A stretch of DNA of 28,344 nucleotides from Gemmatimonadales bacterium (lineage in GTDB: Bacteria > Gemmatimonadota > Gemmatimonadetes > Gemmatimonadales > GWC2-71-9). Location: the NCBI GenBank assembly GCA_037387025.1, contig JARRLJ010000010.1, positions 1-28,344 on the forward strand, written 5' to 3'. Position numbers and translations under genes: made by a program. Shown here piece after piece: positions 18,922 through 20,426 of the stretch (position 1 is the first letter of the stretch; the number at the start of each line of letters is the position of its first letter). The notes under the pieces were generated by a model. The model searched no databases and had not been told where the DNA came from. It saw only the letters and a program-made list of their open reading frames with translations.

Positions 18922-19063
18922 TTTCGGATATTCGGTTGCCTAGCTGGCGGCCGCAATGTTGTATTGTGAGCGCAAAACTTCAAGCGGCGGACTGTCGCGA
19001 ATTTTGGTCCCGGCGTCAAGAGGACCATTAACTTTAAGGCTGGACAATAGCTCCGGAGGATCG

Positions 19064-19294
19064 ATGAAGGCTGATATTCAGTATTGCGTTGTCTGAAACT
19101 ACGGACCACGGGCCACCAGTCTGGCGGCCGAGATTAGAAATGCGTACCCTGCAGCGGATGTACACCTGGTCGAGGCATCGGGAGGTCTGTTCGAAGTGAC
19201 TATTGATGGGGAGCTGATCTTTTCGAAGCAGAAACTAGGGCGCCACGCCGAGCCAGGAGAGGTTCTGGAGTTGATCCGAGAGCGATTCAACTAG
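19064..19294 (+). CDS. SelW/SelT/SelH (Rdx) family selenoprotein, 76 aa, CxxU motif (Sec = TGA 19094-19096)
   Basis: GGAGGA then ATG 19064. Translation MKADIQYCVV-U-NYGPRATSLAAEIRNAYPAADVHLVEASGGLFEVTIDGELIFSKQKLGRHAEPGEVLELIRERFN*, with the Rdx hallmarks YCxxU, GGxFEV and IFSK. Missing from the ORF track because of the TGA. Confidence 0.92.
19111..19129 (+). promoter_or_regulatory. Bacterial SECIS-like hairpin
   Basis: GGCC-A-CCA-[GUC]-UGG-C-GGCC. The apical G/U sit at +26/+27 counting the U of UGA as +1. Confidence 0.65.
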
Positions 19295-19313
19295 GAAGCT
19301 CGGATCCGCGAGT

Positions 19314-20426
19314 ATGACAGGCGCCTATGGAGTTTATTCCGGCTCCGTTCGCGTTGCCGTGTCAACAGGGGGCGGTGATGCGCCGGGGCTCAACGCGGTG
19401 ATTAGGGCCGTTGTTCTAGGGGGCTTAAATCGCGGTTGGGAGGTCTTGGGTGTCCGGAAGGGGTTCGGCGGGCTCCTTGGGGACGCCCGGATTGTACCAC
19501 TCGACCGAGAGAGCGTGCGTGGCCTGACCAATGTCGGTGGGACTATCCTGGGGACGACAAATAGAGGAGACCCTTTCCGGTGGCCCACTCAGACAGGTGG
19601 CGGTAAATGGGAAGAATCCGACCGGTCAGACGAGCTGATCGACAAGGCCAGGCTGCTGGGAATCAAGGCTGTGATTGCCGTCGGCGGAGACGGCACCTTG
19701 AGGATAGCGGCAGACCTGGCGCAGAAGGGGCTCCCCGTGGTAGGCGTCCCCAAGACGATCGACAACGACGTGGGTGGGACGTGGACTACCTTCGGTTTTG
19801 ACACGGCTGTAAACACCGCGACGGACGCTATCGACAAGATCGTCTCCACAGCCAAGAGTCACGAGAGGGTAATGGTTGTAGAGGTAATGGGACGTTACGC
19901 AGGGTGGATAGCTCTGCATGCTGGGTTGGCGGGAACTGCGCACGCTATTCTCATTCCGGAAATCCCATTCGATCTAGATGTGGTGTGCGACAAGATCCGT
20001 CAAAGAGAGGCGCTTGGCCGACACCATAGCATTATTGTTGCTGCGGAAGGTGCCGTACCCAAAGGTGGTTCGGCTGTCGTACAGGCCGAGGCGGCAGTCG
20101 GTGGCACGGAAAGATTGGGAGGGGTATGCGAGCTCGTTGCCGAGTACGTTCAGGACAATACTGGCAAGGAAACTCGTACTGTCACCTTGGGGCATCTCCA
20201 AAGGGGTGGATCACCGACGACCTTCGACCGCCTGCTCGCGTTGAGATTCGGGGCGGCAGCCGTCAGGGCAGTCGAGGAAGGTAGGCTGGGACACATGGTA
20301 GCGTTCGATCCGCCGCACGTTACCACAGTGCCTTTGACCGAAGCATTTGCTAAACCGCACGTGGTGCCTCTGGACTGTGACCAAATACGCACCGCTCGGG
20401 AGTTGGGTATCACCTTGGGAGACTAG
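19314..20426 (+). CDS. pfkA: 6-phosphofructokinase (PfkA family, group III/mixed-substrate type, probably ATP-dependent)
   Basis: GGGDAPGLN, GGTILGT, GGDGT, PKTIDND, VEVMGR and LGHLQRGG motifs. Confidence 0.95.
   Translation: MTGAYGVYSGSVRVAVSTGGGDAPGLNAVIRAVVLGGLNRGWEVLGVRKGFGGLLGDARIVPLDRESVRGLTNVGGTILGTTNRGDPFRWPTQTGGGKWEESDRSDELIDKARLLGIKAVIAVGGDGTLRIAADLAQKGLPVVGVPKTIDNDVGGTWTTFGFDTAVNTATDAIDKIVSTAKSHERVMVVEVMGRYAGWIALHAGLAGTAHAILIPEIPFDLDVVCDKIRQREALGRHHSIIVAAEGAVPKGGSAVVQAEAAVGGTERLGGVCELVAEYVQDNTGKETRTVTLGHLQRGGSPTTFDRLLALRFGAAAVRAVEEGRLGHMVAFDPPHVTTVPLTEAFAKPHVVPLDCDQIRTARELGITLGD

What the first reader, a model, noticed from the sequence alone, without database searches (positions are those of the whole stretch)
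19064..19294. Hidden selenoprotein: SelW/Rdx-family gene with in-frame TGA in a CxxU motif
Seen: a strong GGAGGA RBS, ATG, then YCVV-TGA-NY, with 65 more codons of clear Rdx-family sequence (SGGLFEV, LIFSK, RHAEPGEV) to TAG 19292-19294. The TGA falls exactly at the second redox position of the CxxC/CxxU motif. Established: this is the signature of Sec-containing SelW-like proteins. The ORF track and naive annotation miss or truncate it. It predicts a complete Sec machinery (selA, selB, selC, selD) in a lineage not usually highlighted for selenium use.
Basis: partly seen in the sequence, partly recalled or inferred. Interest (0 to 1): 0.8.

Follow-up and report, generated by a model that had tools for sequence, protein, structure and literature searches.

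The report
SelW-like selenoprotein gene in Gemmatimonadota
This is a real 76-codon gene for a small SelW-like redox protein whose in-frame TGA encodes selenocysteine, and it is an ordinary member of a bacterial selenoprotein family described since 2005, here in a soil Gemmatimonadota genome.

Summary
Both the observation and the interpretation hold. Window 19064-19294 (+) encodes a 76-residue Rdx/SelW-like protein with a C8-V-V-U11 motif. It matches Pfam Rdx at E=8e-20, and NCBIfam NF041051 scores 94 bits against a cutoff of 88.

- **TGA conservation:** the TGA sits at the same codon in all 110 related loci fetched, which include five other phyla. It is present in 129 of 199 high-quality Gemmatimonadota genomes.
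- **SECIS:** an 8-bp hairpin with a GUC loop lies at 19111-19129, starting 15 nt after the UGA. 97% of cells are paired and four pairs show compensatory changes. One of those pairs links two synonymous third-codon positions. Synonymous sites inside the hairpin are nearly frozen.
- **Sec machinery:** the window's genome has selA, tRNA-Sec(UCA) and a selD that itself carries a UGA at its catalytic site. selB was not found, but the MAG is 74% complete with an N50 of 6 kb.
- **Co-occurrence with selB:** across the phylum, 127 of 129 carriers of the TGA gene have selB, against 2 of 38 genomes without selB.
- **After Sec loss:** four genomes that lost Sec decoding lack the gene rather than carrying a Cys version.

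The family is well known, so interest is low. The one less ordinary feature is a conserved selW-pfk gene pair. The scan has not reported this gene on other DNA.

The parts
19055..19060 (+). Shine-Dalgarno sequence GGAGGA, 3 nt before the ATG
   Evidence: Read directly. The GGAGG core is conserved at the same place in same-genus orthologues.
19064..19294 (+). SelW-like / Rdx-family selenoprotein gene: 76 codons with Sec at codon 11, stop TAG at 19292-19294
   Evidence: Translation. Pfam PF10262 at E=8e-20 covers profile positions 3-74 of 74. NF041051 scores 94 bits against a cutoff of 88, and TIGR02174 scores 61.3 bits against 34.2. Orthologues are gapless over 72 codons.
19085..19087 (+). Cys8 codon (TGC), the first redox residue of the CxxU motif
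   Evidence: TGC or TGT in 110 of 110 loci.
19094..19096 (+). Sec codon UGA (codon 11), the second redox position of CxxU
   Evidence: TGA in 110 of 110 loci and in every close hit of the phylum sample. It aligns with the second Cys of CxxC in 2fa8 and 3dex and in the G205 Cys form.
19111..19129 (+). Bacterial SECIS hairpin inside the coding region: 8-position stem (19111-19118 with 19122-19129, with an A-C mismatch at 19115/19125 in this copy) and apical loop GUC at 19119-19121
   Evidence: Fold. Pair counts: 97.1% of cells paired against 15-59% when slid, and 4 of 8 pairs have compensatory changes. Synonymous sites are frozen. The loop G is invariant and the following U is at least 90% conserved.
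19314..20426 (+). 6-phosphofructokinase gene, 19 nt downstream with no terminator between; probable operon partner
   Evidence: NF002872 scores 364 bits against a cutoff of 253. No terminator-like site lies between 19294 and 19314. pfk is immediately downstream on the same strand in 85 of 110 loci.

Best explanation
Window 19064-19294 (+) is a functional gene for a 76-residue SelW-like (Rdx-family) selenoprotein of a Gemmatimonadota bacterium. During translation, the UGA at codon 11 is recoded as selenocysteine. The 8-bp hairpin with a G-U-containing apical loop at 19111-19129, lying in the coding sequence 15 nt past the UGA, acts as the bacterial SECIS. It recruits SelB carrying GTP and Sec-tRNA(Sec) to the ribosome. 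SelA makes the Sec-tRNA from Ser-tRNA(Sec) using selenophosphate supplied by SelD. The product has a Cys8-x-x-Sec11 redox centre at the start of the first helix of a thioredoxin-like fold. It most likely acts as a small thiol/selenol oxidoreductase.

- **Shown here:** family membership, conservation of the UGA, structural conservation and covariation of the hairpin, presence of selA, selD and selC, and co-occurrence with selB across the phylum.
- **Inferred:** actual selenium insertion, SelB binding to this hairpin, and the biochemical role. The bacterial substrate is unknown for the whole family.
For: - **Family:** (Rdx E=8e-20; NF041051 94 bits against 88; TIGR02174 61 bits against 34). One search shows sequence homology to solved Rdx structures, with 2fa8 at E=8e-10 and CxxC aligned to CxxU.
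- **UGA conservation:** (110 of 110 loci have TGY at codon 8 and TGA at codon 11, including five outgroup phyla). In one search every close hit in the 200-genome sample has exactly one TGA.
- **Coding on both sides of the UGA:** one search shows synonymous variation at Ile5, Tyr7, Cys8, Val9 and Val10, and throughout codons 12-72.
- **SECIS:**. The stem is paired in 97.1% of cells, against 15-59% for slid controls, and 0 of 500 shuffles reach the observed values. Four pairs have double changes. Pair 18-36 reads GC in 19 sequences, CG in 6, AU in 3 and GU in 1, and it joins the wobble positions of Arg16 and Ala22. The loop G is invariant. In one search, Gly19 is GGT in 18 of 18 sequences, Ala18 is GCC in 20 of 20 and Ala21 is GCG in 26 of 27. 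Other Gly columns have 1.6-2.0 bits of codon entropy and other Ala columns 1.4-1.8 bits. [quoted passage not shown]
- **Machinery in the same genome:**. selD reads GAG-U-ACK, and one search finds G-U-loop hairpins after its UGA.
- **TGA is otherwise a stop:** it ends 532 of 954 long frames, and 12 of 30 orthologues end in TGA.
- **Co-occurrence:** 127 of 129 carriers of the TGA gene have selB above its cutoff, while only 2 of 38 selB-less genomes carry the gene.
Against: selB was not found in the window's own assembly, whether with the family HMM, the SelB winged-helix domains or a same-genus SelB protein. The assembly is 74% complete, in 689 contigs, with an N50 of 6 kb. In this particular copy the stem has an A-C mismatch at 19115/19125, and its folding energy over a 76-nt stretch is not exceptional against shuffles (z = -0.66). 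Support for the hairpin therefore comes from comparative data, not thermodynamics. No Rfam family matched. No protein-level or expression evidence was obtained. Related genomes are not independent samples, so the co-occurrence counts overstate the statistical weight.
Confidence: 0.94

Rival explanations
1. The TGA is a nonsense mutation in a former CxxC gene, so the locus is a pseudogene.
For: Cys-form Rdx proteins exist. A truly decayed CxxC paralogue with three stops is present in the same genome.
Against: The TGA is at the identical codon in 110 of 110 loci spanning six phyla, and in 129 genomes of the phylum sample. There are no other stops or frameshifts. Substitution patterns on both sides indicate purifying selection. 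The SECIS is conserved and covaries.
Confidence: 0.01
2. The gene is intact, but this organism has recently lost Sec decoding (no selB), so translation here stops at codon 11.
For: selB is not found in the assembly. Sec decoding has been lost repeatedly within the order.
Against: selA, tRNA-Sec and a Sec-dependent selD are all intact in the same MAG. About a quarter of the genome is unassembled. Three same-genus genomes have selB. In four lineages that did lose selB, no trace of the gene remains upstream of pfk.
Confidence: 0.03
3. UGA is decoded as something other than Sec, for example Trp, Gly or Cys, through codon reassignment or near-cognate read-through.
For: Some public gene calls of homologues show W at this position.
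Against: Those W residues are what a pipeline produces when it translates under code 4. TGA is the commonest ordinary stop in this genome, ending 532 of 954 long frames. A dedicated tRNA-Sec(UCA), selA and selD are present. The gene's presence tracks selB. The conserved hairpin has no role in a simple reassignment.
Confidence: 0.02

Closest known systems
Bacterial SelW-like selenoproteins (CxxU), as catalogued by Zhang, Gladyshev and co-workers (PMC1088965, PMC1794560, PMC2398784); NCBIfam NF041051 / TIGR02174; Pfam PF10262 Rdx
   Same: The size (about 76 aa), the N-terminal CxxU motif, the HMM scores above curated cutoffs, the SECIS immediately downstream with a small G-containing loop, and the scarcity of Cys-form orthologues all match. 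In four relatives that lost Sec decoding, no copy, Sec or Cys form, remains upstream of pfk.
   Different: The host phylum, Gemmatimonadota, is not discussed in those papers. The gene is paired with pfk in most Gemmatimonadales, a linkage I did not find in the outgroup phyla.
Cys-form Rdx proteins with solved structures: Agrobacterium Atu0228 (PDB 2fa8) and Streptomyces SAV_2001 (3dex)
   Same: They are homologous over the whole domain (E=8e-10 and 2.6e-7). Their YCxxC motif aligns residue for residue with YCVVU.
   Different: They carry Cys instead of Sec, are about 105 aa long with extra termini, and belong to a separate subfamily at roughly 35-40% identity. No UGA or SECIS is involved.
Escherichia coli fdhF SECIS (from my own knowledge of the SelB/SECIS literature, not retrieved here)
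   Same: Both are hairpins within the coding sequence just after the UGA, with an apical loop that presents a G-U dinucleotide followed by C-U-G.
   Different: Here the loop is 3 nt (GUC) instead of 4 (GGUC). The G-U lies at +26/+27 rather than +23/+24 from the U of the UGA. There is no bulged U, and this copy has an A-C mismatch in the stem instead.
Mammalian selenoprotein W
   Same: It belongs to the same Rdx family and has the same CxxU redox motif. A reported interaction with glutathione is mentioned in PMC1088965.
   Different: The eukaryotic SECIS lies in the 3' UTR and has a different structure and different decoding factors. No functional equivalence has been shown.

Membership tests
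Rdx / SelT-SelW-SelH family (PF10262, TIGR02174, NF041051) | Profile HMM match above the curated cutoff over the full domain | tested here: met
   PF10262 scores 71.3 bits against 22.6, covering profile positions 3-74 of 74. NF041051 scores 94 against 88, and TIGR02174 scores 61.3 against 34.2.
Rdx / SelT-SelW-SelH family (PF10262, TIGR02174, NF041051) | CxxC or CxxU redox motif directly after the first beta-strand near the N-terminus | tested here: met
   C8-V-V-U11, invariant in the C and U positions in 110 loci. It aligns to the CxxC of 2fa8 and 3dex.
Rdx / SelT-SelW-SelH family (PF10262, TIGR02174, NF041051) | Thioredoxin-like fold | not tested
   No structure prediction was run. The fold is inferred from full-length sequence homology to solved Rdx structures.
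Bacterial Sec-decoded (selenoprotein) gene | In-frame UGA conserved among orthologues at a position held by Cys in homologues | tested here: met
   for the TGA. for Cys forms.
Bacterial Sec-decoded (selenoprotein) gene | Bacterial SECIS: a stem-loop immediately downstream of the UGA in the coding region, with a small apical loop containing G (PMC1088965) | tested here: met
   Hairpin at 19111-19129 with loop GUC. Covariation and frozen synonymous sites support it.
Bacterial Sec-decoded (selenoprotein) gene | tRNA-Sec (selC) in the genome | tested here: met
   C486:2573-2665 (-). RF01852 scores 70.7 bits against a gathering score of 47. ARAGORN calls tRNA-SeC with anticodon tca.
Bacterial Sec-decoded (selenoprotein) gene | selA and selD in the genome | tested here: met
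   selA scores 512.6 bits against 267.9. selD scores 364.6 bits against 125 and has U at its catalytic site.
Bacterial Sec-decoded (selenoprotein) gene | selB (Sec-specific elongation factor) in the genome | tested here: inconclusive
   Not found in this MAG, which is 74% complete with an N50 of 6 kb. The best hit is EF-Tu next to a tRNA cluster. selB is present in three same-genus genomes and in 127 of 129 phylum genomes that carry the TGA gene.
Bacterial Sec-decoded (selenoprotein) gene | Selenium actually incorporated at the UGA position | not testable with these tools
   Requires 75Se labelling or mass spectrometry.

The most novel reading that the evidence does not exclude
The conserved selW-pfk gene pair of Gemmatimonadales is a functional unit. 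Either the selenoprotein redox-regulates the phosphofructokinase, or the efficiency of UGA recoding in the 5' gene couples selenium or redox status to expression of the glycolytic enzyme downstream. The pair occurs on the same strand, usually 0-60 nt apart, in 85 of 110 loci, and in none of the outgroup phyla.
Probability: 0.1. Interest if true: 0.55.

Novelty: new member of a known kind. Interest (0 to 1): 0.25.

Why it matters
Practically, this is an annotation fix. Standard gene callers lose or truncate this gene. Public entries for its relatives are 44-59-aa fragments or carry W at the Sec site. The analysis also documents that Sec decoding is widespread in Gemmatimonadota, a major soil phylum: selB was found in 162 of 199 good genomes and this selenoprotein in 129. 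The Sec trait and this gene have been lost together several times, and in the four selB-less genomes examined no copy, Sec or Cys form, remains upstream of pfk. That pattern fits the published view that Sec is the original state of SelW-like proteins and is hard to replace. It does not reveal a new mechanism. The conserved hairpin gives a clean, covariation-supported example of a lineage's SECIS consensus that could seed selenoprotein searches in this phylum.

Tried and rejected
- **Rfam scan of the whole window at gathering thresholds:** no hit.
- **Single-sequence folding:** the hairpin appears, but the energy is unexceptional against shuffles (z = -0.66). I relied on comparative evidence instead.
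- **selB searches in the own genome:** TIGR00475, PF09107, PF09106 and a same-genus SelB by tblastn returned only EF-Tu, IF2 and other translational GTPases.
- **Cys-form orthologues:** none were found among 110 loci or among database proteins. The apparently full-length 80-aa database entries have W at the site, which is TGA translated under another code.
- **Remnants of the gene upstream of pfk in four genomes lacking selB:** none found.
- **Literature linking Gemmatimonadota with Sec decoding:** nothing specific.
- **Not run:** a structure prediction, because sequence homology was already decisive. A SelW-PFK complex prediction, because I do not claim that the two proteins bind.

Full report
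**Observation.** GGAGGA is at 19055-19060 and the ATG at 19064. The protein starts MKADIQYCVV, followed by TGA at 19094-19096 as codon 11. Sixty-five further sense codons follow, and the stop TAG is at 19292-19294. Under table 11 the ORF list shows only a 46-aa frame ending at that TGA and no ORF of 40 aa or more in the continuation. A plain ORF track therefore misses the gene.

**Family.** Read through with U at codon 11, the 76-residue product matches Pfam Rdx (PF10262) at E=8e-20 over essentially the whole profile. It also passes the curated cutoffs of two NCBIfam models for SelT/SelW/SelH (seleno)proteins: NF041051 at 94 bits against 88, and TIGR02174 at 61.3 against 34.2. It is homologous over its full length to solved Cys-form Rdx proteins, with 2fa8 at E=8e-10 and 3dex at 2.6e-7. 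Their YCxxC motif aligns exactly to YCVVU, which places the UGA on the second redox Cys.

**Conservation of the UGA.** Record titles of the related contigs place the window in Gemmatimonadota, order Gemmatimonadales. In 40 relatives from three families of the order, 38 carry the orthologue, and each has exactly one in-frame TGA. I extracted 30 of these genes. All align without gaps over 72 codons and read YC(V/G/A)V-U-(N/S/G)Y.

Across those 30 loci plus 80 further loci from the species-representative genome collection, codon 8 is TGC or TGT and codon 11 is TGA in 110 of 110. The 80 include contigs labelled Armatimonadota, Krumholzibacteriota, Chloroflexota, Actinomycetota and Planctomycetota. 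Conserved residues on both sides of the UGA show synonymous codon variation, for example at Ile5, Tyr7, Cys8, Val9 and Val10 upstream. The stretch before the UGA is therefore translated together with the stretch after it. A nonsense-mutation pseudogene is excluded.

**SECIS.** Every orthologue has a hairpin beginning 15 nt after the UGA. In the window it spans 19111-19129, with a stem of 8 positions and the loop GUC at 19119-19121. This copy has an A-C mismatch at 19115/19125.

On the 30-sequence alignment A1, the named structure is paired in 97.1% of cells, against 15-59% when the 3' partners are slid by 1-3 columns. Four of the 8 pairs show changes on both sides, and 0 of 500 shuffles reach the observed values.

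The most telling pair is 18-36, which reads G-C in 19 sequences, C-G in 6, A-U in 3 and G-U in 1. It joins the wobble base of Arg16 to the wobble base of Ala22, so protein selection cannot explain the covariation.

Synonymous sites inside the hairpin are also nearly frozen. Gly19 is GGT in 18 of 18 sequences, and the alternative residue there is Ser encoded by AGT. Ala18 is GCC in 20 of 20 and Ala21 is GCG in 26 of 27. The five other conserved Gly columns carry 1.6-2.0 bits of codon entropy, and the other Ala columns 1.4-1.8 bits.

The loop G is invariant and the following U is at least 90% conserved. [quoted passage not shown] The single-sequence folding energy is unremarkable (z = -0.66) and Rfam has no matching family. 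The case for the SECIS is therefore comparative.

**Sec machinery.** The window is contig C10 of a MAG of 3.83 Mb in 689 contigs, estimated 74% complete, with an N50 of 6 kb.
- selA is present at 512.6 bits against a cutoff of 267.9.
- selD is present at 364.6 bits against a cutoff of 125.
- tRNA-Sec is present at 70.7 bits against a gathering score of 47. ARAGORN also calls it tRNA-SeC with anticodon UCA.
- selD is itself a selenoprotein gene. It reads ...SHGAG-U-ACKLSS..., with the UGA at the catalytic Cys/Sec position. Small hairpins with G-U in their loops follow that UGA.
- TGA is not reassigned. It is the commonest terminator of long frames in this genome, ending 532 of 954, and it ends 12 of the 30 orthologous genes.

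selB was not found. TIGR00475 returns only EF-Tu, which sits next to a Thr-Tyr-Gly-Thr tRNA cluster, along with other translational GTPases. The SelB winged-helix domains give nothing. A same-genus SelB used in tblastn finds only the same GTPases. Given the fragmentation of the assembly, this is best read as an assembly gap. Three same-genus genomes have selB at about 350 bits.

**Co-occurrence across the phylum.** I searched the same sample of 200 Gemmatimonadota genomes of at least 90% completeness for the protein and for selB.
- The TGA-bearing gene is in 129 genomes, and 127 of those have selB above its cutoff. The two exceptions, G064 and G203, are assemblies of 210 and 270 contigs.
- Of the 38 genomes without selB, only those two carry the gene.
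- Both are missing together in several separate clades: all 8 genomes of genus g34, 2 of 5 in g50, and 16 genomes of family f2.
- One selB-less genome, G205, has instead a distant CxxC form, YCTGCRW.
- The unpublished genome G174 is one of the 127. Without it the count is 126 of 128, and no conclusion depends on it.
- Related genomes are not independent samples, so these counts describe a pattern and are not a statistical test.

In four selB-less Gemmatimonadales that retain pfk, there is no trace of the gene upstream. At these loci the gene is simply absent, with no Cys-form replacement. This fits the earlier finding that SelW-like selenoproteins have very few Cys homologues (PMC1794560).

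**Public annotation.** Database relatives are mostly 44-59-aa fragments that cover only the part after the UGA. A few are still named selenoprotein W-related. The 80-aa full-length entries carry W at the site, which is a TGA translated under another code.

**Context.** The gene sits in a divergent intergenic region, downstream of a chemoreceptor gene on the other strand. It lies 19 nt upstream of a 6-phosphofructokinase gene (NF002872 at 364 bits against 253), with no terminator-like site between them. pfk follows directly on the same strand in 85 of the 110 loci. It does not follow in any of the outgroup-phylum loci. Genomes that lost the selenoprotein keep pfk, so the kinase does not depend on it.

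**Mechanism and comparison.** The best-supported reading is standard bacterial Sec insertion: SelB with Sec-tRNA(Sec) is recruited by the in-frame hairpin. The product is a CxxU thiol/selenol oxidoreductase of the thioredoxin-like Rdx fold. The recoding logic is well supported here. The biochemical role is inferred from the motif and the family, and it is unknown for bacterial SelW-like proteins generally (PMC1088965).

Compared with the E. coli fdhF SECIS, as I know it and not retrieved here, the loop is GUC rather than GGUC. The G-U sits one codon further from the UGA, and there is no bulged U.

**Verdict.** This is a real feature, correctly interpreted, and a new member of a well-known kind. 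[quoted passage not shown] Interest is low. The only feature beyond the ordinary is the lineage-wide selW-pfk pairing.

Noticed in passing
G000 contig C516:223-1149 (+), locus L007 175-1215: The selenophosphate synthetase gene of the same genome is itself a selenoprotein gene. It has an in-frame TGA at the catalytic GAG-U-ACK position, and a second TGA serves as its true stop. Hairpins with GAGU and GUG loops follow the first UGA.
   Followed up: partly
G000 contig C526:2162-2380 (-), locus L132 654-890 (-): A second Rdx-family sequence with a Cys-form CVPC motif, 44% identical to the selenoprotein. It is interrupted by three in-frame stops (TAA, TAG, TAA) at conserved Tyr, Phe and Glu positions. 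It is apparently a decayed paralogue, and it lies on a 2.7-kb contig whose binning I did not check.
   Followed up: partly
window 19064-20426: The selenoprotein-pfk gene pair is conserved. pfk lies directly downstream on the same strand in 85 of 110 related loci, all of them Gemmatimonadota, and in none of the outgroup-phylum loci. Genomes that lost Sec decoding keep pfk without the upstream gene.
   Followed up: partly
window 19314-19349: More distant PFK orthologues align only from residue 9-12 of the 370-aa frame. The true pfk start may therefore be the GTG about 11 codons downstream of the ATG at 19314, which would widen the intergenic gap to about 50 nt.
   Followed up: no
database proteins P0016, P0020, P0024, P0034, P0043: Public metagenome gene calls of homologues are full length but carry Trp at the Sec position. 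This indicates that those contigs were translated with TGA=Trp, a systematic mis-annotation of selenoproteins.
   Followed up: no
window 18984-18998 (+): A terminator-like hairpin with a T-rich tail lies in the divergent intergenic region upstream of the selenoprotein gene. No upstream gene on the + strand needs it.
   Followed up: no
G170:C36:24652-24867 and G121:C3:1771618-1771836: Two class-level relatives show the TGA plus one extra in-frame TAG within the matched stretch. This may be a shorter C-terminus or incipient decay.
   Followed up: no
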